DNA from: a virus
Virus record (IMG/VR): IMGVR_UViG_3300045988_128720
Length of the DNA stretch: 40,503 nt
Reading direction: 5' to 3' (one strand)
Shown here: positions 1,436 to 33,081 of the stretch, piece after piece
How positions within the stretch are numbered: position 1 is the first letter of the stretch
Layout of the letters: each line of letters starts with the position of its first letter
Made by a program: the position numbers and the translations under genes
Notes under the pieces: generated by a model
What the model saw: the letters and a program-made list of their open reading frames with translations, nothing else
Databases searched by the model: none
Told to the model about the DNA's origin: nothing

Positions 1436-1459
1436 AAATCTCACCTCCCGATATGAAAT

Positions 1460-1476
1460 AATGAGATAATCTCATT
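1460..1476. promoter_or_regulatory. operator palindrome AATGAGA-TAA-TCTCATT overlapping the -35 of the rightward promoter
   Basis: Perfect 7+3+7 inverted repeat. Related half-sites TCTCATT at 1584-1590 and TCTCAAT at 1615-1621 and 1624-1630. Confidence 0.7.
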
Positions 1477-3377: not shown

Positions 3378-4538
3378 ATGAAAAGAAATTTGACGGACGG
3401 GCTGATGCTGCGCAAAGATGGCAGATACCAGCGCAAGGAGCAAATCGGCGACAGCTGGAAAACCTTTACAGCCAGAATGCCAGCAGAAGTATGGCAAAAA
3501 ATAGAGGACGCAAAAGAAGAACAGGAAGAAAAAGAACGGAAAGAAGAAGCCACGGCGAACGCCGGGCCGCTGTTCAGCGAGATTGCGGAAGAGTATAAGC
3601 GTGTTGTCGCTGGCATGAAAAGCGGAACACAAAAAAGCTATATGCCAGCCATCAAGCGGGCCTGCGATACGTTCGGCGAATACCGCATGAAAGAAATTGA
3701 GCCGTACATGATTGCGGAGTTTTTGCGCGGGCCGGAGATGGCTGGGCGGGCTGCTACGACAGTAAGCAACCAAAAAACCGTGATAAACAACATTTACCAG
3801 TATTGGATTGACAGCCCAAAGTGGCGCGGCGATGTAAACCCGGCAGCACAAACCAAAATGCCGCGCGGATTGAGCAAGGGCAAGCGCCAGCCGCCTACAA
3901 ATGAGCAGGTAGCCGTAGTAAAAGAGCATTACCTAGACCCAGACGCGTTGCCAGCAGTGGCTTATCTGTGCACCGGTGAGCGAAAAGGGGAAATGTGCGC
4001 TATACAGTTGCGGGACATAGATTTTAAACGCAATATCATCCACATAACCAAAACCGTAGAGCACAAAGGCAATGCAGCAGTTATACGAGACTACGGAAAG
4101 ACCCCGGCGGCAATTCGGGAAGTGCCGCTTCTGTCCATGCTGAAAGAAGCACTAAAGCCGGTGCGGAAGATGCCGAAAGATACGTATATTATCGGCCTGG
4201 ATGTAAAGCCAGTAAGCAAAAGCCGATACGATCGCATGTGGCAAAAGTTTTGGAGAAAATACGGCATAGCCGAAGCAGTGCCGCGCACGAAGAAAGTTGA
4301 GCGGCGCGGCAGAGTGGACACGATCGCGTACACGGATTGGAAAGTGCCAGTATGTGGGCACCAGTTCCGGCATGAGTATGTGTGCATGCTGGCGATGGCG
4401 GAAGTGCCAGAAGAGATTGCAATACAGCTTGTAGGGCATGCAAATGCCAAGATGATACACGAGGTGTATTTATCACTAAAGCCCCAGATGATAGAGGACG
4501 CACGGAAGAAATTAGAGAGCATTTTAGCAGGGCAATAA
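3378..4538 (+). CDS. int: tyrosine recombinase / phage integrase with N-terminal arm-binding-like domain
   Basis: TAGGAGGGTG RBS. Motifs GERKGEMCAIQLRDID (R), HQFRHEYV (HxxR) and GHANAKMIHEVYLS (H...Y). N-terminus LRKDGRYQRKEQIG resembles Arm-DNA-binding domains. Confidence 0.93.
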   Translation: MKRNLTDGLMLRKDGRYQRKEQIGDSWKTFTARMPAEVWQKIEDAKEEQEEKERKEEATANAGPLFSEIAEEYKRVVAGMKSGTQKSYMPAIKRACDTFGEYRMKEIEPYMIAEFLRGPEMAGRAATTVSNQKTVINNIYQYWIDSPKWRGDVNPAAQTKMPRGLSKGKRQPPTNEQVAVVKEHYLDPDALPAVAYLCTGERKGEMCAIQLRDIDFKRNIIHITKTVEHKGNAAVIRDYGKTPAAIREVPLLSMLKEALKPVRKMPKDTYIIGLDVKPVSKSRYDRMWQKFWRKYGIAEAVPRTKKVERRGRVDTIAYTDWKVPVCGHQFRHEYVCMLAMAEVPEEIAIQLVGHANAKMIHEVYLSLKPQMIEDARKKLESILAGQ

Positions 4539-4553
4539 ATGGGACTGAAAAAG

Positions 4554-4701
4554 TGGCATAAAAAGTGCAGTCCGATTTAACGGGATTTGCTATAAGTTTT
4601 AAATTCGAGTTTGGTGCAGCGCTGGTGCATATTCACTTTTTATGACGATATATCGACATTGAAATAGAGTTCGACTCTCGCCACTCGGACTTTTTATGCA
4701 C
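4554..4701. other. candidate attP core region: imperfect inverted repeat (4554-4575 / 4685-4701) enclosing a 10-bp palindrome CGATATATCG (4646-4655) and a tRNA 3'-end-like segment GAGTTCGACTCTCGCCACTCGGAC (4667-4690)
   Basis: It sits directly after int. G-TTCGACT-C matches a T-loop signature. (G)GTGCA motifs in 11-bp pairs at 4553/4564 and 4613/4624, with an inverted copy at 4697-4702. Confidence 0.4.
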
Positions 4702-4721
4702 CGGGCGTTGAATCGCAGAAA

Positions 4722-4753
4722 AACCGCTTAGCCGCGTAGCTAAGCGGTTTTTT
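4722..4753. terminator. intrinsic terminator after int (bidirectional shape)
   Basis: 11-bp stem AACCGCTTAGC / GCTAAGCGGTT with a 6-nt loop, then a T-run. An A-run lies upstream. Confidence 0.8.
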
Positions 4754-4800
4754 CTTTGTTTATGCGCGCTTTAAAACGTTCAAAAATGTATATTATGCGT

Positions 4801-4926
4801 GGTGCAATCATGGTGCATACACGATATACAGCCCTGTTTATGGGGATTTTGGTGCGCTTATGGTGCAAATTTGGTGCAGATTTGGTGCAGATTTGGTGCA
4901 GAAAATCACGGTGCAAACATGGTGCA
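4801..4926. repeat. array of 9 (T)GGTGCA motifs, mostly in 11-bp phase (core unit TTTGGTGCAGA x3)
   Basis: GGTGCA starts at 4801, 4812, 4851 (GGTGCG), 4862, 4873, 4884, 4895, 4910 and 4921. The array lies between two terminators. The track ORF 4756-5100 across it is implausible. Confidence 0.9.
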
Positions 4927-4933
4927 AAAAAAG

Positions 4934-4961
4934 AAAGCCGCTTTTTTGGGGCGGCTTTTTT
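4934..4961. terminator. bidirectional intrinsic terminator ending the minus-strand accessory block
   Basis: Stem AAAGCCGC / GCGGCTTT with T-runs on both strands. Confidence 0.7.
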
Positions 4962-5221: not shown

Positions 5222-6139
5222 TCAGGCGGGGTTGTCGTTGCTGGCGGCGTCGAGTTCCTTCATAAGCTGCCGGGCGGCGCGTCTGCCGTTGTCGGTGAGC
5301 TGACGTTGCCATGCGCCGTTGCGCGGGGACCAGCGGAAACCGTAAGATTTGAGTAGGGCGCGGGTGTCGTCGTCGGGTTTTCCGTCGAAGATCAGCTGCA
5401 CGCGCATCTGTTCGGTGTCCTCGTGGTAGGTGTAGCCGTCGTGTTCCTCGTCGTCGTGGGTGGCGCTCTTAGCTGTCTGCAACGAGTTCAAGCGATCTTG
5501 CAGGCGCTTAACGTTGGCGAGGCTGTTCTGCAGGGCGTAGGGCGGGTATGGAGTGCCGGTGTACCATCCTGCGGACCAGTGACTTTCGATGTTGCGGCGC
5601 TCCTCGGGGTCAAGGTCGGGGCAACCTTCCAGCGTCTTGTGCTGGCGGTAATAGGCATTAGTGGCCTTCATCCGGTCACGCTCTGCCTGCAGGCGGTTGA
5701 GCTTGTAAGTCAGTGCCTCGATCGCTTCGGGGTCGTTGGACTTGATCGGCTGCTGGTGGGCGTGTTCCAGCAAGTACAGGTAGTGTTCGGCTTTTTCAAA
5801 GTTCGCGGCGTTCGCCTGCCACGCGGCGATCTGCTTTTCTTTCTTCCGCACAGGGAAGTTGGCAGGCCCGCAGACCATAACGGACGGGCAGCGGGCGCTG
5901 ATCTCGTTGTCGCGGTTGATGGCGTTGGCCAGCGTGGCGGCATAGCGGTCGAACAGATACTCGGCTCGTTCGCGCTGGGCGTCGGTCTGACAAAGTGCCT
6001 GCACCCTTTTGAGGGTGTCGGCAGCCTCTGCCACTTGGGCGCGGTAGCCTGCCGTGGCGCTGCCCGGCTTGTAGTCGCTAAAGCTGCGCAGGTCGTTTGC
6101 CCGGCGGGCGGTGTCCTCGTTGATGGTGTAATTGCTCAT
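5222..6139 (-). CDS. DUF3560-like protein (305 aa) with C-terminal GFRWS module
   Basis: ORF track entry with an AGGAGGT RBS. The C-terminus VQLIFDGKPDDDTRALLKSYGFRWSPRNGAWQRQL recalls DUF3560 proteins of plasmid leading regions (memory-based). Confidence 0.75.
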   Translation of the reverse strand: MSNYTINEDTARRANDLRSFSDYKPGSATAGYRAQVAEAADTLKRVQALCQTDAQRERAEYLFDRYAATLANAINRDNEISARCPSVMVCGPANFPVRKKEKQIAAWQANAANFEKAEHYLYLLEHAHQQPIKSNDPEAIEALTYKLNRLQAERDRMKATNAYYRQHKTLEGCPDLDPEERRNIESHWSAGWYTGTPYPPYALQNSLANVKRLQDRLNSLQTAKSATHDDEEHDGYTYHEDTEQMRVQLIFDGKPDDDTRALLKSYGFRWSPRNGAWQRQLTDNGRRAARQLMKELDAASNDNPA

Positions 6140-6216
6140 TGTGTTACCTCCTGTGTTGTGGTTGTTATTCGGATATGGGGCGGGGCTGCTTTAAGCTGTG
6201 CAACCCTGCGAGAGTG

Positions 6217-6681
6217 TCAGCGGTGGACAAGGCCATAATAGTAATGGCGCAGGCCATGGCGGACAAAAGCCATGTATAGAAGCCCTTGCGCGTCGCTGGT
6301 GGAAGGCTCGCCCATCAAAAAACCCTTGTGACCATCGCGGCGCAGATCGCGCGGCAGGCTGTACGGTGGCATGCAGTTCAGCATATCGTCATACACGTCG
6401 GCGGTAATGGCCTGGCCGGCGCGGGCGTTAAACGTTCCACTGCGCTCCCAGTCGGCGCGGGTGTAGGTGTCAGCGGTTGGCAGGTCGGCGGCAAGGTCGC
6501 AGTAGTGGTTGAACATCAGGCGGGCGTCCTCCGGGTCGTGAGTGTGGTAGCACTCAATCTCCCGACCATCGGGGTACATGGCCATAACTTCAATATAGCC
6601 ACATTCGGCGGTGAGGTCTGCCGCGTCGATGATGATCTTGCGGCCCTGCCAGGTGGTTTCGGTGTGGTGTAGGGTTTTCAT
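6217..6681 (-). CDS. hypothetical protein (154 aa)
   Basis: ORF track entry, compact spacing within the operon, AAAGGAGC-type RBS upstream. Confidence 0.7.
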   Translation of the reverse strand: MKTLHHTETTWQGRKIIIDAADLTAECGYIEVMAMYPDGREIECYHTHDPEDARLMFNHYCDLAADLPTADTYTRADWERSGTFNARAGQAITADVYDDMLNCMPPYSLPRDLRRDGHKGFLMGEPSTSDAQGLLYMAFVRHGLRHYYYGLVHR

Positions 6682-6696
6682 GGTTGTTAGCTCCTT

Positions 6697-6927
6697 TCAG
6701 ATGATGCCGCACTGTTCAGCGGCCAGGACGAACGCGGCGGCTTCGCGGTCGCTTGTGATGTGGTCGCCTTGCAGTTCTTCCAGACGGAAGCGGGCGCGGC
6801 GGAAGTCGGCGCTGTGGGCGGTGAAATACTCGAACCTGGCAACGGTGGCCGGGTAGCTTGGCAGCTCGTCCAGGCCATCATACAGGGCCACATATGCGGC
6901 CTCGTAGGCTGTTTGCAGGTGTTCCAT
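6697..6927 (-). CDS. hypothetical protein (76 aa)
   Basis: Internal ATG 6925-6927 preceded by AAGGAGG. The longer track ORF adds a Pro/Ser/Ala-rich extension with no RBS. Confidence 0.65.
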   Translation of the reverse strand: MEHLQTAYEAAYVALYDGLDELPSYPATVARFEYFTAHSADFRRARFRLEELQGDHITSDREAAAFVLAAEQCGII

Positions 6928-6940
6928 GTTGTGGGCCTCC

Positions 6941-7225
6941 TTACTGGTTCCAAGTGCAGTCTCGGGGGAGCTGCTTGCGGGCATTCTCGACGCAAACGGC
7001 CTTGATGGTGATGTGGACGGCGCGGCCGGTGCTGGTCTCGGTGCCTGTGAAATAATAGTAGCCGTAGCGCTTGCCACGCGTGCCGGATGGCTTGAACCGC
7101 TCCGGCGGGATGATGACTTCAATCGTGCGGTTCTGCTCGTGGTATGTGCCGGGGACGGTCTGGCAGTCGGCGTAGTGCTGCTTGTAGGTGCGGTAGGGGA
7201 TGCGGTAGGTGTCTGTCATTGTCAT
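6941..7225 (-). CDS. hypothetical protein (92-94 aa)
   Basis: AAGGAG upstream. Two in-frame ATGs (7225 and 7219); the second has the better spacing. Confidence 0.65.
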   Translation of the reverse strand: MTMTDTYRIPYRTYKQHYADCQTVPGTYHEQNRTIEVIIPPERFKPSGTRGKRYGYYYFTGTETSTGRAVHITIKAVCVENARKQLPRDCTWNQ

Positions 7226-7296
7226 TATCTCCTTTACTTTGGTTTGTGGGGTAGGGTCGCTTTACTGTGCGGCCCTGCAAGGTATCAGGCGGGGAA

Positions 7297-7494
7297 TCAG
7301 TCGGCGATGCAGAGCATATAGCCGCGCTTTGCACAGATGATAGCGAGGCGGGCATAGTTCATATAGTTGCGGACTGCATCGGGCTTACTTGTGGTTGCGT
7401 ACTCGTTTGAAAGCCTTTGCAGGTTGCGGCGCTGCTGCGCGAGCTCTTTTTGAGCGCTGCGCGGGGTTAGCTTGAAGGTTGTGTATTGGGTCAT
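7297..7494 (-). CDS. hypothetical protein (65 aa), first gene of the leftward sub-operon
   Basis: AAAGGAGC RBS, directly downstream of the promoter at 7537-7565. Confidence 0.65.
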   Translation of the reverse strand: MTQYTTFKLTPRSAQKELAQQRRNLQRLSNEYATTSKPDAVRNYMNYARLAIICAKRGYMLCIAD

Positions 7495-7536
7495 GGTTGT
7501 TTGCTCCTTTCGGTGCTGTGGTTTTGATTTGTCTAT

Positions 7537-7565
7537 ATGATACTACGGTAAACCGTATATGTCTA
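7537..7565 (-). promoter_or_regulatory. leftward promoter TAGACA-17-TATCAT with operator palindrome TACGGT-AA-ACCGTA (7544-7557) in the spacer
   Basis: On the minus strand, the -35 is at 7560-7565 and the -10 at 7537-7542 with a 17-nt spacer. Confidence 0.65.
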
Positions 7566-7609
7566 TTGGCATTTTGCATAATGTTTACCGTATATTTTGG
7601 GCATTTTTC

Positions 7610-7641
7610 TACTGTAAACCGTATTGCCGTTGTGTTACAAT
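7610..7641 (+). promoter_or_regulatory. rightward promoter region of RHH gene 1: operator copy TACTGTAAACCGTA (7610-7623) over the -35, and -10 TACAAT (7636-7641)
   Basis: The operator differs by one base from the 7544-7557 palindrome. An additional half-site TTTACCGTATA is at 7584-7594. Confidence 0.55.
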
Positions 7642-7667
7642 AGGAATGCAAGAAAGGGGGCTATATT

Positions 7668-7847
7668 GTGGCAGTTTCTGAAAGTCAAAAAAAAGCGTCT
7701 GCGAAATGGGATAAAAACCACGCGGCAACACTTGCTTGTAAGGTGCCAAAGGAAAAAGCGGAAGCGTTCCGGGATTATTGTGCTGATCAGGGGAAAAGCG
7801 TCCACGCGGTTTTGCTGGAGTATGTCAACAACTGCTTAGAGCGGTGA
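7668..7847 (+). CDS. 59-aa ribbon-helix-helix (Arc/CopG-like) regulator, GTG start (not in ORF track)
   Basis: AAAGGGGG lies 7 nt before GTG 7668. VAVSESQKKASAKWDKNHAATLACKVPKEKAEAFRDYCADQGKSVHAVLLEYVNNCLER is paralogous in pattern to the 8649-8849 product. Track ORF 7624-7839 is the wrong frame (poly-basic junk). Confidence 0.7.
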   Translation: MAVSESQKKASAKWDKNHAATLACKVPKEKAEAFRDYCADQGKSVHAVLLEYVNNCLER

Positions 7848-7909
7848 CGGCTCCCGCGACCTTGCCCGGCGGGCTGCCGGGTGGTTTCGACCCTTGCCGG
7901 GGGTCATCA

Positions 7910-8443
7910 TCAGGCGGGGATGGTTTCGCGGTCGCGGGTTTGGTAGCTCTGGCCGCTGTACTTCTGGTAGATTTCTTCATAAGAGGCGCGGCGGTTGCGG
8001 CGGCTGCTGTCGCCTGCCGGGTGCCAGTAGTATTTGCAGCGGTTAGCAGACCAGCGGAAGCCGAGCTTTTCGAGGGTGCGCAGCCACTTGTGGTTGGTGT
8101 CGGCCCAAATCCAGGAGCCGACGACGTCGAACTGCAGGCCCGGGCACTTGGCCAGCTCTTCGGCCATCTTGACGGCCTCTTCATCCTGCGCGGTCTTGGC
8201 GGCATTCTCTGCCGCTTTGGTCTGCTCGTACTGCTGGCGGCCTTGCTTGGCCTGCTCACTGCAGAAGCGGGGGAGCGTTGGCTTCAGCTCGTCCCACTCG
8301 GCGTTGATTTCCTGCATGTCGGAGACGCTGCCGCCGTGATCGGGGTGGTGCTTGCTGGCCAGGTCGCGATACATTGCGGTGCCTTCGGTGATGGTGCAGG
8401 GGCGGGGGTTGAACCATTTATAGGTTTTATATGTGGTAGTCAT
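7910..8443 (-). CDS. J-domain protein (177 aa) with C-terminal GFRWS module
   Basis: AGGAGGAAACAAC precedes ATG 8441-8443. HPD motif in YRDLASKHHPDHGGSVSDMQEINAEWDEL. C-terminus VVGSWIWADTNHKWLRTLEKLGFRWSANRCKYYW. Confidence 0.85.
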   Translation of the reverse strand: MTTTYKTYKWFNPRPCTITEGTAMYRDLASKHHPDHGGSVSDMQEINAEWDELKPTLPRFCSEQAKQGRQQYEQTKAAENAAKTAQDEEAVKMAEELAKCPGLQFDVVGSWIWADTNHKWLRTLEKLGFRWSANRCKYYWHPAGDSSRRNRRASYEEIYQKYSGQSYQTRDRETIPA

Positions 8444-8495
8444 GTTGTTTCCTCCTGTGGGGCCGCTGGACGGCTGTTCTTGTTTCGATGGCTTT

Positions 8496-8524
8496 ATTAT
8501 ATCCGTCAACGTGTATCATGTCAA
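8496..8524 (-). promoter_or_regulatory. leftward consensus promoter TTGACA-17-TATAAT for the J-domain gene
   Basis: On the minus strand, TTGACA is at 8519-8524 and TATAAT at 8496-8501. Operator GTCAACGTGT lies in the spacer. Confidence 0.75.
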
Positions 8525-8597
8525 TACGTCTACGTGTAATTTGTAGGATTGCACAGTAAACGTCTACGTGTTTTGTGCATCTTGTACACGTTGACGT
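8503..8597. promoter_or_regulatory. four ACGTC(A/T)ACGTGT operator copies
   Basis: Copies at 8503-8514 (cCGTCAACGTGT), 8526-8537 and 8560-8571 (ACGTCTACGTGT), and 8586-8597 (inverted ACGTCAACGTGT). The outer two copies overlap the two divergent promoters symmetrically. Confidence 0.75.
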
Positions 8598-8619
8598 ATT
8601 GGGCGCGGTGTGGTATGAT
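8591..8619 (+). promoter_or_regulatory. rightward promoter TTGACG-17-(TG)gTATGAT for RHH gene 2
   Basis: TTGACG 8591-8596, 17-nt spacer, extended -10 TGGTATGAT ending at 8619. Confidence 0.7.
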
Positions 8620-8648: not shown

Positions 8649-8849
8649 ATGGCATCACCAGCACAGATCCAGGCGAATGTCCGGTACAATCGCAGCCGGG
8701 ACAGTATCACAATACGGCCCAGCAAGGAGGACGGCGCAGCAGTGCGGCAGGCAGCTGCAGCAGCCGGGCAGAGTGTGCAAGGCTACATAATGCAGGCATG
8801 TTCCGAGCGGATGCAACGAGAAAATCACGATAAACCGAAAAACACTTGA
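8649..8849 (+). CDS. 66-aa ribbon-helix-helix (Arc/CopG-like) regulator
   Basis: AAGAGGAGG RBS. MASPAQIQANVRYNRSRDSITIRPSKEDGAAVRQAAAAAGQSVQGYIMQACSERM has the beta-strand, helix, helix pattern. Confidence 0.75.
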   Translation: MASPAQIQANVRYNRSRDSITIRPSKEDGAAVRQAAAAAGQSVQGYIMQACSERMQRENHDKPKNT

Positions 8850-8874
8850 CAAAATCGCACTTGCATGCTAAAAT
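8846..8874 (+). promoter_or_regulatory. near-perfect promoter TTGACA-17-TAAAAT, followed by a second TATAAT at 8878-8883
   Basis: The -35 overlaps the stop codon of the RHH gene. The spacer is exactly 17 nt. Confidence 0.75.
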
Positions 8875-8875
8875 G

Positions 8876-8936
8876 TGTATAATGAGCGAACCACGCGAGG
8901 AAGCGAGTTTCCGCGACGGGGCTCACTCATTATACA
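8876..8936 (+). ncRNA. structured leader / short RNA hairpin between the promoter and the terminator
   Basis: TGTATAATGAG (8876-8886) pairs with CTCATTATACA (8926-8936). An inner helix pairs CGCG(A)GGAA with TTCCGCG. No ORF with an RBS is present. Confidence 0.5.
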
Positions 8937-8971
8937 GTTTTAACGTATCAACGCAAAAAATTAGGTTTCGG

Positions 8972-9002
8972 GCGTCCAGGCTTCGGCTTGGGCGCTTTTT
9001 TT
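8972..9002 (+). terminator. intrinsic terminator 30 nt upstream of the terS RBS
   Basis: 10-bp stem GCGUCCAGGC / GCUUGGGCGC (two G-U pairs), UUCG loop, then seven T. Confidence 0.8.
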
Positions 9003-9031
9003 GTTGCTATTTAAGGTAGGAGGGCGGCAAC

Positions 9032-9595
9032 ATGGCAGAGAAAAGCAAGGCGGCGCAGGCCGTCCAGCAGATGAGCAAGGCAGAGCGCGGCATACAGCGA
9101 GCACTAGAGCAAGCAGAGCGCGGCGAGCTTGTGGATAGTTTGGGCCGAGTTGTAAAGCCGTCACAAATTGCAGCGCTAAAGCCCAAGACGCTAGACCAGC
9201 AGCCAGCAGACCGCAAGCGAGAAATCCAGCAGGCAGGAGCAAAGCGCAGCAACGAGGTGCAAGCAAAGCGGAGGACTATAAAGGATATATATAGTGATTT
9301 GCTGCAGCAAGAGGATGACATTACAGGACTAGAGGATCAGGAGCTAGCAACGAGAGCGCAAAAGCGAGCACAAGAGCGAGGACAGCCGATTACCGTATAC
9401 GACAGTATCGCTATTGCGATGGCAGCGAAAGCGAAGGCCGGAGACGTGAAAGCGGCGGTGTTTGTGCGGGATTCTGCGGGGGATAAACCGGCCGACCAGA
9501 TGGAGATTACAGCCGAGACGATGACCGACGCAGACCGCGAATTGTTGGCAAATGTGCAGAAAAGACTGCAAAACGACGATGCTACGCAAAAGTGA
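9032..9595 (+). CDS. terS: terminase small subunit (187 aa)
   Basis: AGGAGGG RBS. DSIAIAMAAKAKAGDVKAAVFVRDSAGDKPADQMEI matches the conserved C-terminal block of small terminases (memory-based). Position is at the head of the packaging module. Confidence 0.75.
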   Translation: MAEKSKAAQAVQQMSKAERGIQRALEQAERGELVDSLGRVVKPSQIAALKPKTLDQQPADRKREIQQAGAKRSNEVQAKRRTIKDIYSDLLQQEDDITGLEDQELATRAQKRAQERGQPITVYDSIAIAMAAKAKAGDVKAAVFVRDSAGDKPADQMEITAETMTDADRELLANVQKRLQNDDATQK

Positions 9596-9597
9596 TA

Positions 9598-9621
9598 TTC
9601 GCTAAATAGGTATTTAGCGAA
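9598..9621. repeat. perfect inverted repeat TTCGCTAAATA-gg-TATTTAGCGAA, 3 nt after the terS stop
   Basis: 11-nt arms read directly from the sequence. No T-run follows, so it is not a typical terminator. Confidence 0.85.
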
Positions 9622-9695
9622 ATACAGCCGGGAAAAGCGGGCGCATGCAGCATAAAGAGGAAAGCCGAAAGCCTGCCGGGGGTGCATTGCATCAA

Positions 9696-9784
9696 GGCGG
9701 GGCGGGGGCTTCTTTTTTTATGGGGCTGTCCAGCAGAAGGCAGCAGGGGACCGGGGGTACCCCCCTATGAAGGGCGGGGCGGGG
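9696..9784. repeat. G-rich direct repeats GGCGGGGCGGGGG (9696-9708) and GGGCGGGGCGGGG (9772-9784) flanking a 12-bp palindrome GGGGGTACCCCC (9753-9764)
   Basis: Read directly. C-rich tracts follow at 9829-9838 and 9851-9862. No plausible ORF is present. Confidence 0.85.
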
Positions 9785-10002
9785 TGTGTAGAGAGCGCAG
9801 CCAGGTACGAATATGTTCCTTCCCCCACCGAACACAAAAATAAAATTTACCCATCCCCCCCATGCAGGAACATGTCGAAAAAACTGACAGGTTCCCCAGA
9901 AAAAATGATATAAAGTATATCCCGGTGCGGAAGTAAGTCAACCTCCTCTCTTACTATTGGGACTAGGGCCGTCCGCTTCAAGACCCAGCGGCCACAATAC
10001 AA

Positions 10003-10031
10003 AGCGTTCTGCTACGGCAGGGCGCTTTTTT
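10003..10031 (+). terminator. intrinsic terminator inside the terS-terL gap
   Basis: 10-bp stem AGCGUUCUGC / GCAGGGCGCU (two G-U pairs), UACG loop, then six T. Confidence 0.75.
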
Positions 10032-10035
10032 ATTT

Positions 10036-10653: not shown

Positions 10654-10801
10654 ACAGATCGCGGCAAGCCTCTGTTACACGCAACTTGCAAAAGCGTGTA
10701 AGTTTGTGACAAGTTTCAAAATATAAGACGTTAATGCGTTGAATGTTAACTTGCTTGTAACTTGCACACCGTGCAACACGCGCAACTGCCGCGCTTTATA
10801 T

Positions 10802-10885
10802 GCCAACATAGCTTAACTGGTAAAGCCGGGCCTCATGACAGCGTAGCTGCTGGTTTAGTTGCAGGTTCAAATCCTGCTGTTGGTG
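10802..10885 (+). tRNA. tRNA-like element with canonical acceptor, D and T arms but an aberrant, expanded anticodon region (possible CAU loop); pseudogene or non-decoding mimic
   Basis: GCCAACA / UGUUGGU acceptor; U8; D arm GCUU-AACUGGUA-AAGC; T arm GCAGG-UUCAAAU-CCUGC. 33 nt lie between the D and T arms where about 22 are expected, and no 5-bp anticodon stem can be drawn. Confidence 0.45.
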
Positions 10886-11220
10886 AAAGCTGGGTCGCTC
10901 CCACCGGTGAAAGCCCGGCGCAGGCAAAACGCGATAGATAACCTGAACGCTGTAAGCAAAGCGGCAAGCCGATCAGGAGCGCGGCGCGATGGCAGACCGC
11001 AACGGGACTTTGAGAGCCTGAAAAAGTCTGCCCGGCATCTGCTTGTGCGGACTCCGTTACTGACGCAGTTACGCATCGCCGAAAACCATTACATCAAAGC
11101 AGAACCGCGAATCCGCACGCGGGGGATAAATGCAGCGGATTGAAAAAGCGTTGCGGATTTGCTATCTGCAACGGGTGAGACCGGCACAGCATAAACCGGT
11201 ATGGCGGGTATGGGGAATTT

Positions 11221-12732
11221 TTGAGGAAATGGGGTGATGTGTTGACGCTGGAAGAGATGCGGGAACTTGAACGCGAGGCGTGCAGGAAAGACCCGGTGTA
11301 TTTTTGCGAAACATATTGCCACATTGAGGACAAGGACGCAGACGAACTGATACAGCCGTTTGCGCTGTGGGCCGGGCAGAAAAAAGCCCTTGTTGTGTTT
11401 GCACAGAACCGGCTGGTGTGCGTTTTGAAAGCCCGGCAGCTGGGGTTTACCTGGCTGGCGCTGGTGGAAGTAGCGCGGCTTGTGGCGCTGAATACAGGCC
11501 GTACTGCCATTGGCTTGAGCCGGTCAGAGGACGAAGCAAAAGAGCTTGTGCGCCGCTTGGCGGTAATACTGCGATACATGCCCGGGCTTATCCGGGAAGT
11601 GGACACGCCGGGCGGCAGTATTGCAGGGTGGACAGGCCCGGTGTTTTACAAAAGCACGATGCAGGTCGTGGTGATGTGGCCGGACGGCCCGGAGAGCGTG
11701 TTTAAGGCGTTCCCATCCAGTCCTGCTGCAGGCCGTTCGTTTACTGCCGACTTGATTGTGATAGACGAATGGGCGTTCCAGCAGTATGCCGAAGAGATTT
11801 GGCAGGCAGCATACCCGGTTATTAACCGACCGTTCGGCGGGCGTGTCATTGGGCTGTCTACCATCAAGCTGGGGACGCTGTTTGAGGAAATCTACACGAA
11901 CCCCGGAAACGGGTTTACGAAGCTGTTTTTGCCCTGGAGCACCGACCCGCGCCGTACCGAAAAATGGTACGCACAGACGGTTGCTGCGCTGGGCGAAGAT
12001 AAAACGATGCAGGAGTACCCAGCTACCGAGGAAGAAGCCCTGAGCGCCCCAGGAGGGCGTTTTTTCAGCGAGTTGGATAAGGACAAGCACCTTGTGGACA
12101 GCCCCCCTACAGGGGCGCTACGGCGGTATGTAGCCATCGACTACGGCCTTGATATGTTGGCCGCTATCTGGATTGCCATTGACGATGAGAACCACGCCAC
12201 TGTGTACCGGGTGGACGGCGGGCCGAATAAGACCATCGGCGAAGCTGCCGATTTGATTTTGCGGGATTCTGAAGGGGAAGAGATAGACATGTATCTTGCC
12301 CCGCCTGATTTGTGGAACCGCAGCCAGGAAAGCGGCAAGAGCCGGGCGCAACTGTTCAGTGAAGCGCATTTGCCGCTGGTGCAAAGCAGCCGCGATTTCC
12401 CTGCCGGGTGTGCTGCCATGAAGCAATGGCTGACGGTGGACGAAAAGACCGGCAAAGGCTGGCTTACGTTCTACAAACCAGGTGAGTTGTGGACCTGCCT
12501 GACCAAAATCCAGAAAGACGACAAAAACGCCGATGTATATGCGAAGAATCCGCATGGATTGACGCATTTCCCGGACGCTTTACGCTATTTTTGCGTTTGG
12601 TGGACGAGCCCGGCGAAAAAGCCGGTGAATATCCGCAAACGGAAATGGTCGGCTGACATGTACGAGGACTACCGCAATGCCAATACGGAAGAGCGAAAAA
12701 TGCTGATGGAAAGGTGGGGACACCCTGCATGA
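11221..12732 (+). CDS. terL: terminase large subunit
   Basis: VLKARQLGFTW (Walker A-like), LIVIDEWAF (Walker B), and VAIDYGLDM nuclease aspartate. About 500 aa. The start is ambiguous (TTG 11221, GTG 11239 or TTG 11242). Confidence 0.9.
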   Translation: MRKWGDVLTLEEMRELEREACRKDPVYFCETYCHIEDKDADELIQPFALWAGQKKALVVFAQNRLVCVLKARQLGFTWLALVEVARLVALNTGRTAIGLSRSEDEAKELVRRLAVILRYMPGLIREVDTPGGSIAGWTGPVFYKSTMQVVVMWPDGPESVFKAFPSSPAAGRSFTADLIVIDEWAFQQYAEEIWQAAYPVINRPFGGRVIGLSTIKLGTLFEEIYTNPGNGFTKLFLPWSTDPRRTEKWYAQTVAALGEDKTMQEYPATEEEALSAPGGRFFSELDKDKHLVDSPPTGALRRYVAIDYGLDMLAAIWIAIDDENHATVYRVDGGPNKTIGEAADLILRDSEGEEIDMYLAPPDLWNRSQESGKSRAQLFSEAHLPLVQSSRDFPAGCAAMKQWLTVDEKTGKGWLTFYKPGELWTCLTKIQKDDKNADVYAKNPHGLTHFPDALRYFCVWWTSPAKKPVNIRKRKWSADMYEDYRNANTEERKMLMERWGHPA

Positions 12733-13024: not shown

Positions 13025-13058
13025 AGCGCTTATCCCATTTGGGGTAGGCGCTTTTTTT
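13025..13058 (+). terminator. intrinsic terminator between the terL unit and the head genes
   Basis: 12-bp stem AGCGCUUAUCCC / GGGGUAGGCGCU, AUUU loop, then seven T. Confidence 0.8.
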
Positions 13059-13100
13059 ATACCTATTTTTAGCCGACGGGCGTTGTACGTGGAGGAACCA

Positions 13101-13943: not shown

Positions 13944-14945
13944 ATGGCAGTTGTATTTAGTAAATCCAGCGGCGCAGCCAATGATTATTGGAACGAATGG
14001 GCCGACATGATCCAGATGAAGATGAAGGACACCGACAACGAGAAGAACAACGACGACGAGCTTGTCAATGCCCTGTTCAACGTGAAGAAATCCAAGCGCT
14101 TTGGTGAGAAGATCGCGGGCCTGTCTACCTTTGGCAACTTTGAGGTTGTGGACGAAGGTGCAGAAGCCCCGGCCGATACCCTGAAAGAGACGGAACCCAA
14201 GCTGATTACCCACAGCGAGTTCAAGAAACTGTTTGAAGTCACCAAGACTATGAAGGAGGACTTGCAGTTTGACATTGCTGCCACCAAGGCAGCGGCCGAT
14301 GTGCGTGCCTACAAGCGCAGCCGTGCAGCGTTTGCCAGCGCTGCGCTGACCAGCGCCGCCAAGACTTTTACCTACGGCAGCAAGACCGGACTGGACAGCA
14401 CCACCGCTGACGGCCTGGCCCTGTTTGATAAGGCGCATACCGGCCTGACCGGCGTTGCGACCCAGTCCAACGTGTTTACCAATGCCTTTGGCAATGACGA
14501 TGCCATGCTGAACCGCCTTGCCAACATTGGCATGAACTTTAAAAACGCCACCGGCCATGTGTTGGGCTACACCTTCGATACCCTGGTCGTGCCCGGCAAC
14601 GCCTACCGCCTGATCACGCTGGGCAAGAAGATCATCAACAGTGACCAGCAGGTTGGCAGCAGCTACAACGATGTCAACGTGAACAAGGGCATGTGGAAGC
14701 TTGTGGTTGATCACCATTGGCAGGTTGCAGATGGCACCGAGCCGTACATCATCATGTCCAGCCAGGCCAACAAAGACCTGATGGGCAATATGTTTTACGA
14801 CCGTACCCCGCTGGAAATTGAACAGGATGTGGATGTGCGCACTCAGAACCTGATCTCCAGCGGCCGTGGCCGTTTCAGCGTCGGTTTTGGCGATTGGCGG
14901 CACATCATCATGGGCGGCGCTGCTGCCGGTACGGAGTTGACCTGA
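13944..14945 (+). CDS. major capsid protein (333 aa, presumably HK97-fold)
   Basis: AAAGGAGCC RBS. Size, position after the scaffold gene and composition typical of capsid proteins. No protease gene is present. Confidence 0.8.
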   Translation: MAVVFSKSSGAANDYWNEWADMIQMKMKDTDNEKNNDDELVNALFNVKKSKRFGEKIAGLSTFGNFEVVDEGAEAPADTLKETEPKLITHSEFKKLFEVTKTMKEDLQFDIAATKAAADVRAYKRSRAAFASAALTSAAKTFTYGSKTGLDSTTADGLALFDKAHTGLTGVATQSNVFTNAFGNDDAMLNRLANIGMNFKNATGHVLGYTFDTLVVPGNAYRLITLGKKIINSDQQVGSSYNDVNVNKGMWKLVVDHHWQVADGTEPYIIMSSQANKDLMGNMFYDRTPLEIEQDVDVRTQNLISSGRGRFSVGFGDWRHIIMGGAAAGTELT

Positions 14946-15100: not shown

Positions 15101-15130
15101 AGCGGCCCTGCTTAGGCAGGACCGCTTTTT
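15101..15130 (+). terminator. intrinsic terminator after the capsid unit
   Basis: 11-bp stem AGCGGCCCUGC / GCAGGACCGCU (one mismatch), UUAG loop, then five T. Confidence 0.75.
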
Positions 15131-15168
15131 ATCACATTTGCGGGGGCATGACCCTACAGGAGTGAACG

Positions 15169-22706: not shown

Positions 22707-22901
22707 ATGGGCGATTTTATCAAGAATTTGGCAGCGCTTATCAAGGTAAAAACCATTGTGACGCTGGTTGTCGTTGCGGTTTTTGCGGTGATGGCGCTGC
22801 AAAGCAAATTACAGCCTGACACGGTCATGACCATTGTGACAATGGTCGTGGCCTTTTATTTTGGCACGCAGACCGAAAGCAAGAACAAGAAGGATGAGTA
22901 A
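22707..22901 (+). CDS. holin (64 aa, two TM helices, charged C-terminus)
   Basis: TIVTLVVVAVFAVMAL and VMTIVTMVVAFYFG, with an ESKNKKDE tail. Lies in the lysis cassette. Confidence 0.75.
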   Translation: MGDFIKNLAALIKVKTIVTLVVVAVFAVMALQSKLQPDTVMTIVTMVVAFYFGTQTESKNKKDE

Positions 22902-23741: not shown

Positions 23742-23766
23742 GCCGCCCGCAATGGGCGGCTTTTTT
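23742..23766 (+). terminator. intrinsic terminator in front of the giant ORF
   Basis: 7-bp stem GCCGCCC / GGGCGGC, 5-nt loop, then six T. It is followed by an AAGGAGG RBS. Confidence 0.75.
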
Positions 23767-30811: not shown

Positions 30812-31002
30812 CCATGAAGTTTGATTTTTGTATGAGCCGGGACGAGTATGACGACCTGGTGTTCAGCCTGACGGACGACGAGAGGGAAGTACTGGACATG
30901 CGGCGGCATGGGCGGCGCAATGCGGAGATCGCGGCGGAAATGAACTGCTGTGAGCGGACAGTAAACCGGCATGTAAGAAGCATCAAGAACAAATGGAAAT
31001 AA
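30808..31002 (+). CDS. 64-aa sigma-70 region-4 / LuxR-type HTH protein
   Basis: LTDDEREVLDMRRHGRRNAEIAAEMNCCERTVNRHVRSIKNKW. The start overlaps the stop of the giant ORF. Confidence 0.7.
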   Translation: MTMKFDFCMSRDEYDDLVFSLTDDEREVLDMRRHGRRNAEIAAEMNCCERTVNRHVRSIKNKWK

Positions 31003-31014
31003 CCACCTGATTTT

Positions 31015-31057
31015 GCGGGGGCAATGTGCTGAAAAGGCATGTTGCCCCCGCTTTTTT
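31015..31057 (+). terminator. intrinsic terminator
   Basis: 10-bp stem GCGGGGGCAA / UUGCCCCCGC, then six T. Confidence 0.8.
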
Positions 31058-32586: not shown

Positions 32587-32635
32587 AAAGCAGCCCGCAG
32601 TTGTTCGGAATTTCCGAACTGCTGCGGGCTTTTGT
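32587..32635. terminator. long bidirectional terminator between the convergent late (+) and early (-) transcription units
   Basis: ~19-bp hairpin AGCCCGCAGUUGUUCGGAA / UUCCGAACUGCUGCGGGCU, with an A-run upstream and a T-run downstream. Confidence 0.8.
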
Positions 32636-33081
32636 TATGGGAGAATGTCGATTTCCCAGCCGGAGGGAAGTTCTAAGAGAAACAAGCCGGTGCGTTCCTG
32701 CGCACGTACCCAGAAATCAGAACGGTTCAGTTCTTTTGCTGTATCCCGGCGTGATTTGCCCTCAAAGTAAATGGCAATCAGGACGGATTGCTGGTCGGAG
32801 TTGAGTGGTTTCATAGCTTCGTGCCGCTTGCAATAGGCTGTGTTCATCTCGGCGCGGGCACGGCAGTACCGGGCATAGGCTTTGTCGTACCGCTCTGCCA
32901 GGCGGGCGACAGGGTCAGAGCGGGTGTTGCCTTTGGGCATACCGTCGGCAGGGTGGGCCGACATAGCGGCGTTGGATTCATAGAATTTATCGCGGGCCTC
33001 GATGAATGCTTTCTGATAGGCGGCGTATTTTTCCATCCATTTTTGACGCTGAGTGTTGCCGCAGGGTACATTATTTGCCAT
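32635..33081 (-). CDS. DUF1492 / sigma-region-4-like late transcription regulator (148 aa)
   Basis: GGAGGAAATCAGCA precedes ATG 33079-33081. GMPKGNTRSDPVARLAERY...LNSDQQSVLIAIYFEGKSRRDTAKELNRSDFWVRAQERTG matches the ArpU/RinA/DUF1492 pattern (memory-based). Last gene of the early operon. Confidence 0.7.
   Translation of the reverse strand: MANNVPCGNTQRQKWMEKYAAYQKAFIEARDKFYESNAAMSAHPADGMPKGNTRSDPVARLAERYDKAYARYCRARAEMNTAYCKRHEAMKPLNSDQQSVLIAIYFEGKSRRDTAKELNRSDFWVRAQERTGLFLLELPSGWEIDILP

What the first reader, a model, noticed from the sequence alone, without database searches (positions are those of the whole stretch)
8846..9002. Lambda PR'-like late leader: consensus promoter, tandem -10 hexamers, structured short RNA and a UUCG-loop terminator directly upstream of terS
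TTGACA (8846-8851), a 17-nt spacer and TAAAAT (8869-8874) form a near-perfect housekeeping-type promoter. Its -35 overlaps the stop codon of the 66-aa RHH gene. A second perfect TATAAT (8878-8883) lies 3 nt after the -10, at about the predicted start site. Lambdoid phages place the sigma-dependent pause element used by Q in that position.

The transcript can fold into a hairpin closed by 11 bp (8876-8886 with 8926-8936). It then meets a 10-bp stem, UUCG loop and U7 terminator (8972-9002), 30 nt before the terS RBS.

The same-strand late region is punctuated by further strong intrinsic terminators at 10003, 13025, 15101, 23742 and 31015. So either this promoter makes only a ~100-120-nt RNA, or late expression needs processive antitermination. 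No Q, N or put homologue is recognisable.

Candidate factors are the RHH gene (placed where lambda Q sits), the 148-aa DUF1492-like protein and the 64-aa sigma-region-4-like protein.
Basis: partly seen in the sequence, partly recalled or inferred. Interest (0 to 1): 0.7.

Follow-up and report, generated by a model that had tools for sequence, protein, structure and literature searches.

The report
Terminator-gated late-operon leader in gut phage
A temperate phage of the gut bacterium Gemmiger places a strong promoter, a conserved folded leader and an efficient stop signal just before its packaging and structural genes, so those genes can probably be expressed only when a phage factor lets RNA polymerase ignore stop signals.

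Summary
About 100 related loci share the segment. It is about 91% identical to the window, against about 75% for the flanking genes. The -35 is invariant, the -10 nearly so, and the distal spacer is free. Hairpin and terminator show compensatory changes (10 pairs, against 2.6 in shuffles). No Rfam family matches.

The terminator ends 29 nt before the first late gene, which leaves no room for a promoter. Seven more strong terminators punctuate the late block. Four to five unrelated prophage lineages repeat the order promoter, terminator, terS-like gene. A lambda PR'-tR'-like gate that needs antitermination is therefore the best reading, but it is unproven.

Corrections:
- The predicted start (about 8881) lies inside the hairpin's 5' arm.
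- The second TATAAT sits 9 bp, not 12-13 bp, after the -10. With the invariant AAATCGCAC box 17 bp upstream it could equally be a second promoter.
- The hairpin's wobble pattern favours the minus strand. This is unexplained.
- The RHH protein is a poor factor candidate. The invariant 148-aa sigma-region-4/DUF1492-like (Ltr-family) protein is the best one.
- "terS" rests on gene position only.

The parts
8591..8619 (+). P1, promoter of the RHH gene (TTGACG-17-TATGAT). Its transcripts also run into the leader and the terminator.
   Evidence: Pattern scan, 10/12 with TG. The region upstream carries ACGTCTACGTGT twice and an inverted GTCAACGTGTA.
8649..8849 (+). 66-aa ribbon-helix-helix gene (NikA-like / DUF1778 / CopG type). 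Its stop codon overlaps the -35 of P2.
   Evidence: Sub-threshold hits to PF21983 and PF08681 and to phrog_13890. Sources name it DUF1778 or CopG/RHH. At least 3 diverged alleles sit next to the same leader.
8820..8860 (+). Three A-rich direct repeats: GAAAATCAC (8820-8828), GAAAAACAC (8837-8845) and CAAAATCGCAC (8850-8860). They are candidate binding sites for the late regulator. The last one, AAATCGCAC (8852-8860), is the invariant proximal half of the P2 spacer.
   Evidence: Read from the sequence. AAATCGCAC is kept in 61 of 62 distinct contexts. It occurs only once in the window as an exact match.
8846..8874 (+). P2: TTGACA, a 17-nt spacer and TAAAAT, with TG at -15/-14. The predicted start is about 8881/8882.
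   Evidence: The start site is inferred from the usual 7-8 nt distance, not measured.
8878..8883 (+). Second perfect TATAAT, 9 bp downstream of the -10 (start to start). It lies 17 bp after the invariant box and forms part of the hairpin's 5' arm.
   Evidence: A second -10-like hexamer 8-9 bp after the -10 also occurs in L045/L056, L046, L238 and (as an imperfect match lacking the final T, TATTAG/TATTAA) L049/L240.
8876..8936 (+). 61-nt imperfect hairpin: an AU-rich outer stem of 11 bp, a GC-rich middle with 1x1 mismatches, and an apical 5-bp stem with a tetraloop.
   Evidence: Fold. 34 distinct variants all fold alike. Covariation. The minus-strand version is more stable in 31 of 34 variants.
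8937..8969 (+). AU-rich linker with the tandem 8-mers GTTTTAAC and GTATCAAC (8937-8952) and an A-tract. It is missing in L044 and replaced in L156.
8970..9002 (+). Intrinsic terminator tL (-19.9 kcal/mol stem, UUCG loop, U7).
   Evidence: Over 30 variants it has 69 G.U cells and no A.C cells. It forms whatever the start site, P >= 0.998.
9018..9595 (+). RBS (9018-9024) and 187-aa first late gene (9032-9595), in the terS position.
   Evidence: No Pfam, NCBIfam or PDB match. Its homologues lie directly upstream of terL in L047, L048, L052, L059 and L064.
10001..10034 (+). Late-block terminator t10001.
   Evidence: Conserved in relatives, with compensatory variants.
13025..13059 (+). Late-block terminator t13025, 24 nt before the next start codon.
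15101..15131 (+). Late-block terminator t15107, before the portal gene.
22823..22861 (+). Late-block terminator t22823.
23742..23766 (+). Late-block terminator t23742, 20 nt before the 2341-aa gene.
31015..31057 (+). Late-block terminator t31015 (-30.7 kcal/mol).
32635..33081 (-). 148-aa candidate late regulator: a long helical hairpin followed by a sigma-region-4-like domain (Ltr superfamily by fold). It is the last gene of the minus-strand early operon.

Best explanation
Positions 8846-9002 are the control region of the phage's late (packaging, head, tail, lysis) gene block. It works as a default-off gate.

A near-consensus host-type promoter (P2) fires. The polymerase transcribes a conserved structured leader and stops at a strong intrinsic terminator 29 nt before the first late gene. 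The default product is therefore a short RNA of about 115-120 nt. Transcripts from the RHH promoter P1 end at the same place.

Late genes are expressed only when the polymerase that leaves this region has been made resistant to terminators, that is, by processive antitermination. The same modification then carries it over at least seven further strong terminators in the 23-kb block.

The most likely phage factor is the 148-aa protein with a sigma-region-4-like DNA-binding domain (32635-33081, minus strand). It is the last gene of the early operon. It probably acts at the invariant AAATCGCAC box, which lies 17 bp upstream of the second TATAAT. That geometry would place it on a polymerase whose sigma region 2 holds the second hexamer.

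Shown: the sequence elements, their conservation, base-pair covariation, the absence of an alternative promoter, the recurrent gene order, and the fold and co-occurrence of the protein.

Inferred: the start site, termination efficiency, antitermination itself, the identity of the factor, and the role of the hairpin.
For: - The elements are present and exceed chance.
- The leader is about 91% identical across 23 relatives, against 76% and 75% for the flanking coding sequences.
- The -35 is invariant, the -10 nearly so, and the distal spacer is free. The conserved block starts exactly at the -35 in L111 and L156 and ends at the U-tract in L226 and L227.
- Covariation: 97.9% of cells are paired. 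Ten pairs show changes on both sides, against 2.6 +/- 1.0 in shuffles (0 of 500 reach the observed value) and 1-4 in slid controls.
- The terminator has 69 G.U cells and no A.C cells, so it folds as + strand RNA.
- No alternative fold competes with the terminator from any plausible start site, so control is not by RNA switching.
- No + strand promoter-like site lies in any intergenic gap downstream. The gaps after the terminators are mostly 20-50 nt.
- Downstream terminators are conserved in relatives, with compensatory changes.
- The order promoter, terminator (ending 27-38 nt before the start codon), terS-like gene recurs without sequence similarity in L045/L056, L046, L049/L240 and L238.
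- The 148-aa protein has a confident model (pLDDT 87). Its C-terminal 55 aa superpose on -35-binding sigma domains (TM 0.66-0.80, rmsd about 1 A). Its recognition helix and C-terminal tail are invariant among homologues of 56-95% identity. It is present in 19 of 19 near-complete genomes that carry the leader.
Against: - No transcript data exist. The start site, termination efficiency and read-through are all unmeasured.
- No homologue of any known antiterminator was found.
- The candidate's structural relatives (Sigma70_r4 and DUF1492 proteins) belong to the Ltr superfamily, which is documented as promoter activators (PMC3753634).
- Two relatives (L229, L233) place the promoter after the terminator, so the gate is not universal.
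- The second TATAAT is closer to the -10 (9 bp) than any characterised sigma-dependent pause element.
- The hairpin's wobble pattern fits the minus strand better, so its role in the + strand leader is uncertain.
Confidence: 0.48

Rival explanations
1. An ordinary Ltr-type activated late promoter, with no processive antitermination. The two hexamers belong to two overlapping promoters 9 bp apart. P2a is TTGACA-17-TAAAAT, recognised by host sigma alone. P2b is the AAATCGCAC box, 17 bp, then TATAAT, with a start near 8890. The 148-aa sigma-region-4-like protein activates P2b by taking the place of the -35 contact. The terminators only attenuate transcription and set gene dosage along the operon.
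For: - The 148-aa protein matches DUF1492 and Sigma70_r4 phage proteins over its full length. Those are families LtrB and LtrA of the late-activator superfamily, which are the only phage proteins needed to turn on terS promoters (PMC3753634).
- It is the last gene of the early operon, as ltr genes are.
- The invariant box lies exactly 17 bp upstream of a perfect -10.
- A-rich direct repeats flank the -35, as in Ltr-controlled promoters.
Against: - Both promoters lie upstream of tL, and tL forms whatever the start site.
- Eight strong terminators in series, without room for intervening promoters, would leave almost no transcription of tail and lysis genes if each stopped even 70-90% of polymerases.
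- A consensus constitutive promoter overlapping an activator-dependent one has no obvious use in this model.
Confidence: 0.2
2. A stand-alone small RNA gene. P2, hairpin, linker and terminator make an abundant trans-acting RNA of about 120 nt, or a lambda-6S-like by-product with a function of its own. The terminator doubles as the end of the RHH transcript. Late expression is controlled elsewhere.
For: - It has a consensus promoter, a 5' hairpin, an AU-rich single-stranded linker and a strong terminator with U7, which is the layout of many bacterial small RNAs.
- The block is bounded by the -35 and the U-tract and travels as a unit between different flanking genes.
Against: - The linker, the usual seed region, is the least conserved part and is absent in L044 and L156.
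- The late genes still have no promoter of their own downstream.
- The only similar or complementary segment found in the window (4717-4830) is not conserved in six close relatives.
- Analogous lineages have leaders too short for a small RNA, for example L049, where the terminator follows about 12 nt after the start.
Confidence: 0.12
3. RNA-only antitermination in cis (put/EAR/conAn2-like). The nascent hairpin itself binds the polymerase and makes it terminator-resistant, so P2 transcripts read through by default. Timing would then be set by repression of P2.
For: - A structured RNA lies directly after a strong promoter and contains a -10-like hexamer. HK022 putL likewise lies just after PL and carries a conserved -10-like sequence, which the authors think aids folding (PMC9378689).
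- The base pairing is conserved.
- There are many downstream terminators.
Against: - It is a single long hairpin, not the two-stem, triplex-containing put fold.
- The start site truncates its 5' arm.
- Distant lineages keep the promoter and terminator but not the hairpin.
- No repressor site for P2 is evident. The one lead, ATAATGAG shared with the immunity operator, fails: L247 has a wholly different immunity region but the same leader.
- Constitutive read-through from a consensus promoter would express lysis genes in lysogens.
Confidence: 0.1
4. The hairpin is not a feature of the + strand leader. It is selected either as a minus-strand (antisense) RNA structure or as a DNA palindrome, for example paired protein-binding sites TGTATAATGAG about 50 bp apart. 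It merely overlaps the promoter region.
For: - The hairpin has 54 A.C/C.A oppositions, which are G.U on the minus strand, against 6 G.U cells.
- The minus-strand fold is more stable in 31 of 34 variants, by 4.8 kcal/mol on average.
- Variant apical loops read CUUG and UUCG on the minus strand.
- The outer 5 bp lie upstream of the predicted + strand start, yet are invariant.
Against: - No conserved minus-strand promoter or terminator flanks it (and inspection of the variants).
- The asymmetry rests mainly on two alignment columns.
- One lineage (the L021 type, 4 loci) has every mismatch repaired to Watson-Crick pairs, which is neutral as to strand.
- Compensatory changes inside the stem are not expected for a duplex-DNA protein site.
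Confidence: 0.1

Closest known systems
Lambda PR' / qut / tR' / Q late-gene antitermination (lambdoid phages)
   Same: - A strong constitutive promoter lies directly before the late operon.
- A short terminated leader RNA is the default product (lambda 6S RNA).
- A -10-like hexamer lies next to the start site.
- An invariant DNA segment lies between the -35 and the -10, where lambda has its Q-binding element.
- The late operon contains many terminators.
   Different: - No Q homologue was found.
- The gene upstream is a variable RHH gene, not the regulator.
- The -10-like hexamer is 9 bp, not 12-13 bp, after the -10. Capture would come at about +10 rather than +13 (PMC9191641).
- The leader carries a large conserved hairpin that lambda lacks.
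- The host is a Gram-positive-type clostridial bacterium.
Ltr superfamily of late activators (RinA, ArpU, LtrA/Sigma70_r4, LtrB/DUF1492, LtrC) acting at terS promoters of Gram-positive phages (PMC3753634, PMC3152322)
   Same: - A small protein with a sigma-region-4-like C-terminal domain is encoded as the last gene of the early operon.
- The controlled region lies just upstream of the terS-position gene.
- A-rich direct repeats lie near the promoter.
   Different: - The regulator gene is 24 kb away on the other strand, not adjacent to the terS-position gene.
- The target promoter has a consensus -35 and -10, so it should not need an activator.
- A strong terminator lies between the promoter and the first late gene. 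In the staphylococcal cases the described terminator lies between ltr and the promoter.
HK022 put RNA (cis-acting RNA antiterminator)
   Same: - A structured RNA lies directly after a strong promoter.
- A -10-like hexamer is embedded in the structure (PMC9378689).
- It acts over many downstream terminators.
   Different: - put is about 70 nt with two stem-loops and a triplex. Here there is one 61-nt irregular hairpin, partly upstream of the predicted start.
- No sequence similarity.
- put needs no protein, and its promoters are repressor-controlled.
conAn bipartite antitermination of Gram-positive conjugative elements (ConAn1 protein plus conAn2 RNA; PMC8191782)
   Same: - It is a mobile element of Firmicutes.
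- A leader RNA element at the start of a long operon that is punctuated by terminators.
- A small element-encoded protein is needed for action at a distance.
   Different: - conAn2 is 260-600 nt.
- ConAn1 (PF17362) was not detected among the proteins scanned.
- In conAn the protein gene lies immediately upstream of the RNA and acts in cis.
LoaP (NusG paralogue) with its leader hairpin
   Same: A small leader RNA hairpin acts as the recruitment site for a processive antiterminator in Firmicutes (stated from my own knowledge).
   Different: No NusG/KOW-domain protein was found in the window.

Membership tests
Lambdoid Q / qut antitermination | A Q-family protein (Pfam Antiterm, Phage_antitermQ, or the Q21 type) | tested here: not met
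   About 35 window proteins were scanned against Pfam, PHROGs or NCBIfam. The only trace is a weak hit (E = 0.002) of the sigma-r4-like stretch of the 162/148-aa protein to phrog_79, 'Q-like'.
Lambdoid Q / qut antitermination | A constitutive promoter followed by a terminator upstream of the late genes, giving a short RNA | tested here: met
   Met at sequence level only: P2 at 8846-8874 and tL at 8970-9002, both conserved. Transcripts were not measured.
Lambdoid Q / qut antitermination | A -10-like sigma-dependent pause element in the initially transcribed region | tested here: inconclusive
   A perfect, invariant TATAAT lies at 8878-8883. That is about -3..+3 relative to the predicted start and 9 bp after the -10. 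In lambda the element is at +1..+6 (PMC9191641). Pausing cannot be tested here.
Lambdoid Q / qut antitermination | A factor-binding DNA element between the -35 and the -10 | tested here: inconclusive
   AAATCGCAC (8852-8860) is invariant in 61 of 62 contexts, while the rest of the spacer varies. Binding was not tested.
Ltr-controlled terS promoter (RinA/ArpU/LtrA/LtrB/LtrC) | An Ltr-family protein (Sigma70_r4 or DUF1492 type) | tested here: met
   The Pfam Sigma70_r4 hits are sub-threshold. The AF2 model (pLDDT 87) matches sigma-4 domains in the PDB (TM 0.66-0.80). Over its full length it matches virome proteins named Sigma-70 region 4 or DUF1492 (TM 0.65-0.74, E 1e-4 to 1e-3).
Ltr-controlled terS promoter (RinA/ArpU/LtrA/LtrB/LtrC) | The ltr gene is the last gene of the early transcript and lies immediately upstream of terS | tested here: not met
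   It is the last gene of the minus-strand early block (32635-33081), which meets the first half. It is convergent with the end of the late block and about 24 kb from its start.
Ltr-controlled terS promoter (RinA/ArpU/LtrA/LtrB/LtrC) | Direct repeats upstream of the promoter that are needed for activation | tested here: inconclusive
   GAAAATCAC, GAAAAACAC and CAAAATCGCAC lie at 8820-8860. A CAAAATC-type repeat also occurs in the different upstream context of L156. Function was not tested.
HK022 put RNA | An RNA of about 70 nt with two stem-loops that acts without protein through the beta' zinc-binding domain | tested here: not met
   The fold is a single hairpin. No similar Rfam family was found, even at E <= 10. 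Activity cannot be tested here.
conAn (ConAn1 + conAn2) | A ConAn1 protein (PF17362) encoded directly upstream of a 260-600-nt RNA element | tested here: not met
   The upstream gene is an RHH protein. PF17362 was not hit by any scanned protein. The element is 61-127 nt.
Any Rfam family | A score at or above the family's gathering threshold | tested here: not met
   The best match is the trpB motif at 27.3 bits, against a threshold of 59, and it is driven by the terminator.
Intrinsic (Rho-independent) terminator | A GC-rich stem-loop followed directly by a U-tract, conserved with compensatory changes on the transcribed strand | tested here: met
Terminase small subunit (for the 187-aa gene) | Homology to a terS family, or a gene directly upstream of terL with a DNA-binding N-terminus | tested here: inconclusive
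   No Pfam, PHROG-function, NCBIfam, PDB-sequence or Foldseek match. The model is poor (pLDDT 67). Homologues abut terL in five relatives. In the window, 1.6 kb separate it from terL.

The most novel reading that the evidence does not exclude
The sigma-region-4/DUF1492-type 'late activators' (Ltr superfamily) of Firmicutes phages are, at least in this lineage, Q-like processive antiterminators. The protein would bind a box 17 bp upstream of a promoter-proximal -10-like hexamer. There it would join a sigma-held, just-escaped polymerase at about +10 and ride with it across eight or more intrinsic terminators. The conserved leader hairpin would be part of the loading signal. This would be a new structural class of antiterminator. 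It would also offer a mechanism for a very widespread family of regulators whose mode of action is unknown.
Probability: 0.2. Interest if true: 0.8.

Novelty: new variant of a known kind. Interest (0 to 1): 0.55.

Why it matters
Late-gene control in Gram-positive temperate phages is usually put down to activators of the terS promoter. Processive antitermination is documented mainly for lambdoid phages and, in Firmicutes, for conjugative elements and a few operons.

Here the late operon of a common human-gut phage sits behind a consensus promoter and a strong terminator. The exact RHH protein is seen on 378 contigs. Seven more terminators follow, and the same layout recurs in other clostridial prophages.

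If confirmed, this would show that a lambda-style 'always firing, always stopping' gate exists in gut Firmicutes phages. It would point to a new factor class and add a new structured leader RNA to the catalogue. It would also give a simple sequence signature for finding late-operon starts in uncultured phage genomes.

Tried and rejected
1. Rfam. Neither the whole window at gathering thresholds nor the leader at E <= 10 gave a family for the leader.
2. Riboswitch-type attenuation. No alternative pairing competes with the terminator from starts at 8876, 8881 or 8890. Manual search for an antiterminator helix found only 4 bp.
3. Prophage repressor acting on the hairpin arms. ATAATGAG occurs only in the immunity operator (1458) and in both arms. 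However, L247 has an unrelated cro/cI/operator set and identical arms. Rejected.
4. cos/pac site. Three IMG/VR contigs end inside the leader, but at three different positions. All come from one metagenome in which many strains share this block, so these are assembly-graph breaks. The terS-position protein also varies (46-82% identity) while the leader does not. Rejected.
5. A paralogous copy or target at 4717-4830 (minus strand; covariance-model hit of 38.7 bits; 22/25 identity in the linker). It is absent from six close relatives. Not pursued.
6. Homologous leader in prophages with about 60% terL identity. The covariance-model hits there are host guaB 3' ends plus terminators. Only the layout is shared, not the sequence.
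7. Phage GenBank collection (blastn, distant mode). No match.
8. Structure of the 187-aa protein. The model is poor and Foldseek found nothing.
9. RHH as the factor. Its alleles do not track the spacer or leader variants, and the gene is not always upstream.
10. Minus-strand promoter for the hairpin. TTGCGT-16-TATAAT exists in the window, but its -35 is not conserved.
Full report
**1. What is there**

- TTGACA lies at 8846-8851. Its TGA is the stop codon of the 66-aa gene at 8649-8849.
- A 17-nt spacer follows, with TG at -15/-14, then TAAAAT at 8869-8874.
- A perfect TATAAT lies at 8878-8883.
- The complementary arms are TGTATAATGAG (8876-8886) and CTCATTATACA (8926-8936).
- The terminator has a stem at 8971-8981/8986-8996, a UUCG loop and U7 to 9002.

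The consensus scan gives the promoter 11/12 with TG and lists the terminator first. RNA 8876-9005 folds at -50.5 kcal/mol, z = -4.8.

The RBS is at 9018-9024 and the ATG at 9032. Only 29 nt therefore separate the U-tract from the start codon.

**2. Genome context**

The window is a complete, circularly permuted temperate phage genome.
- It carries an integrase (3378-4538) and a cro/cI-type divergent pair at 1250-1991.
- An early operon runs on the minus strand from about 1444 across the window ends down to 32635. It encodes a Sak4-like protein, an SSB-like protein, a replication protein and RusA.
- A plus-strand late block runs from 8.6 to 32.6 kb, with terL at 11221-12732, the major capsid protein at 13944-14945 and the portal at 15169-17067.
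- Relatives are prophages of Gemmiger and Allofournierella (Oscillospiraceae).
- The exact RHH protein occurs on 378 contigs, so this is a common gut phage.

**3. Conservation**

Exact-word, pattern and protein-anchored searches recovered about 100 loci.
- Against the window, the leader (8846-9002) is 91% identical on average. The RHH coding sequence is 76% identical and the 187-aa gene 75%.
- The RHH gene comes in at least three diverged alleles, and the 187-aa gene in several.
- The conserved block starts exactly at the -35 in L111 and L156, where the upstream sequence is unrelated. It ends at the U-tract in L226 and L227, where the downstream gene has a different N-terminus.
- Among 62 distinct contexts the -35 is always TTGACA. 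The -10 is TAAAAT in 58 and TATTAT in 4. The proximal spacer AAATCGCAC is kept in 61 of 62. The distal 8 nt take 19 forms.

This is the pattern of a working promoter with an extra constrained box. No Rfam family matches.

**4. Base pairing**

Thirty-four hairpin variants all fold into the same long hairpin.

On a 30-sequence alignment, RNAalifold predicts the hairpin and the terminator.
- 97.9% of cells are paired.
- Ten pairs change on both sides, against 2.6 +/- 1.0 in shuffles (0 of 500 reach the observed value) and 1-4 in slid controls.
- Apical stems vary as GGAAG/CUUCC, GGGAG/CUCCC, GAACG/CGUUC and GAGAG/CUCUC, with a longer stem in L156.

Caveat: the outer 9 pairs were fixed by my search pattern. 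They are nonetheless invariant in the loci recruited through proteins (L018-L044, L055).

**5. Three corrections to the anatomy**

(a) *Start site.* With TAAAAT as the -10, the start should be near 8881/8882, inside the 5' arm. A P2 transcript then keeps only about 6 of the 11 outer pairs. The full closure exists only in read-through RNA from P1 (8591-8619) or on the other strand.

(b) *Position of the second TATAAT.* It lies 9 bp after the -10. In lambda PR' the pause element is at +1..+6 and the polymerase is first captured with a 13-nt RNA (PMC9191641). Here capture would come at about +10. The same hexamer also lies exactly 17 bp after the invariant AAATCGCAC box. 'Two overlapping promoters 9 bp apart' is therefore an equally good reading. 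A second -10-like hexamer 8-9 bp after the -10 also occurs in L045/L056 (TAAACT-TGG-TATAGT), L046, L238 and L049/L240, so the arrangement is probably functional.

(c) *Wobble asymmetry.*
- The terminator has 69 G.U cells and no A.C cells, as expected for a + strand RNA.
- The hairpin has 6 G.U cells but 54 A.C/C.A oppositions. These sit mostly at 8887.8925 and 8890.8922, and they would be G.U in the minus-strand transcript.
- The minus-strand fold is more stable in 31 of 34 variants.

I found no conserved minus-strand promoter, so this remains unexplained. It lowers my confidence that the hairpin works in the + strand leader.

**6. Why a gate**

- No alternative fold competes with the terminator from any start, so this is not a riboswitch-type attenuator.
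- No promoter fits between the U-tract and the start codon.
- The scans find no + strand promoter-like site in any intergenic gap of the late block.
- Seven more + strand terminators (-15 to -31 kcal/mol, with U-tracts) lie in the block, mostly 20-50 nt before the next start codon.
- t10001, t13025 and t15107 are conserved in relatives, with compensatory changes.

Whatever promoter is used, tail and lysis genes lie behind eight strong terminators.

The order promoter, terminator ending 27-38 nt before the start codon, terS-like gene recurs with unrelated sequence:
- in Gemmiger sp. An50/An194 (two tandem terminators);
- in a Hominiventricola prophage;
- in a Mediterraneibacter prophage;
- in L238.

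L229 and L233 instead have the terminator before the promoter, so the design is frequent but not universal.

**7. Candidate factor**

*RHH protein.* It is genuinely RHH-like. Its alleles vary freely next to an unchanged leader, and the gene is not always present upstream. It more likely autoregulates P1, whose operator-like repeats change with the allele.

*148-aa protein* (32635-33081, minus strand; gene callers use the internal ATG).
- It is the last gene of the early operon.
- It is present in 19 of 19 near-complete genomes that carry the leader.
- Its recognition helix and C-terminal tail are invariant across homologues of 56-95% identity.
- Its AF2 model (pLDDT 87) is a long helical hairpin plus a domain that superposes on -35-binding sigma region 4 (TM 0.66-0.80).
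- Over its full length it matches virome proteins named Sigma-70 region 4 or DUF1492 (TM 0.65-0.74).
- These are the LtrA and LtrB families of the late-activator superfamily (PMC3753634).

*64-aa GerE/sigma-r4 protein* (30808-31002). It was found in 16 of those 19 genomes and lies inside the late block, so it is a weaker candidate.

No Q, N, NusG-like or ConAn1 homologue was found.

**8. Verdict**

A lambda PR'-tR'-like gate that needs terminator-resistant polymerase is the best-supported reading (about 0.5). The sigma-4-like Ltr-family protein is the most likely factor, acting at the invariant box and second hexamer.

Rivals are:
- plain Ltr-type activation with leaky terminators (0.2);
- a stand-alone small RNA (0.12);
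- a put-like RNA-only mechanism (0.1);
- a hairpin that belongs to the minus strand or to the DNA (0.1).

The 'terS' label rests on gene position only, because all homology and fold searches were empty.

The closest known systems are lambda Q/qut, Ltr-controlled terS promoters, HK022 put (PMC9378689) and conAn (PMC8191782). It is a member of none by the tests applied.

Noticed in passing
window 11149-11212 (+): A full-length match to the Rfam D12-methyl RNA motif (RF02950, 84.8 bits, against a threshold of 57). It ends 8 nt before the TTG start of terL (11221). The motif is named for DNA methyltransferase genes, but here it precedes the large terminase inside the late block.
   Followed up: no
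window 10801-10886 (+): An 86-nt tRNA gene inside the late block. ARAGORN calls it tRNA-His with anticodon AUG. The Rfam tRNA model scores 46 bits, with a 30-nt insertion in the anticodon and variable region. The anticodon and length are unusual.
   Followed up: no
window 8876-8936, both strands: The hairpin's non-Watson-Crick oppositions are almost all A.C/C.A (54 cells) rather than G.U (6 cells). The minus-strand RNA would therefore be better paired than the plus-strand RNA in 31 of 34 variants. The adjacent terminator shows the opposite pattern (69 G.U, 0 A.C).
   Followed up: partly
window 4717-4830 (-) and 4840-4935: A segment resembles the leader: TGTATA..TATACA arms, then UUUUUGAACGUUUUAAAGCG, then a strong terminator (covariance-model hit of 38.7 bits). 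It lies next to at least 9 TGCACCA repeats, between the integrase and a tRNA-3'-end-like attP core (about 4660-4700). It is not found in six close relatives.
   Followed up: partly
window 9596-10030: A probable moron lies between the 187-aa gene and t10001. It has a minus-strand promoter (TTGACT-16-TATACT, 9941-9914), a small hydrophobic minus-strand ORF (9765-9941, 58 aa) and a minus-strand terminator-like hairpin (9621-9598). Some relatives have other sequence before the same terminator.
   Followed up: no
window 7668-7847 (+): A second, diverged copy of the RHH gene family (59 aa, weak phrog_13890 hit). It lies on the plus strand inside the minus-strand gene block 5222-8509.
   Followed up: no
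window 1458-1476, 1583-1590, 1614-1621: The immunity-region operators are built on AATGAGAT half-sites (palindrome AATGAGAT-A-ATCTCATT). They overlap a TTGACA-17-TATAAT promoter. The 8-mer ATAATGAG is shared with both arms of the leader hairpin. Comparison with L247 shows this is coincidental.
   Followed up: yes
window 8971-8996, 10001-10028, 13025-13052: Three late-block terminators share the 3' arm ending GGCGC followed by T6-7, and a 5' arm starting (A/G)GCG. They look like copies of one terminator module.
   Followed up: no
IMG/VR contigs behind L004, L026 and L037: Three assembled contigs break inside the 130-nt leader. This probably happens because the leader is an identical block shared by many co-occurring strains with different flanks. 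It is an assembly artefact worth knowing about when judging genome ends.
   Followed up: partly
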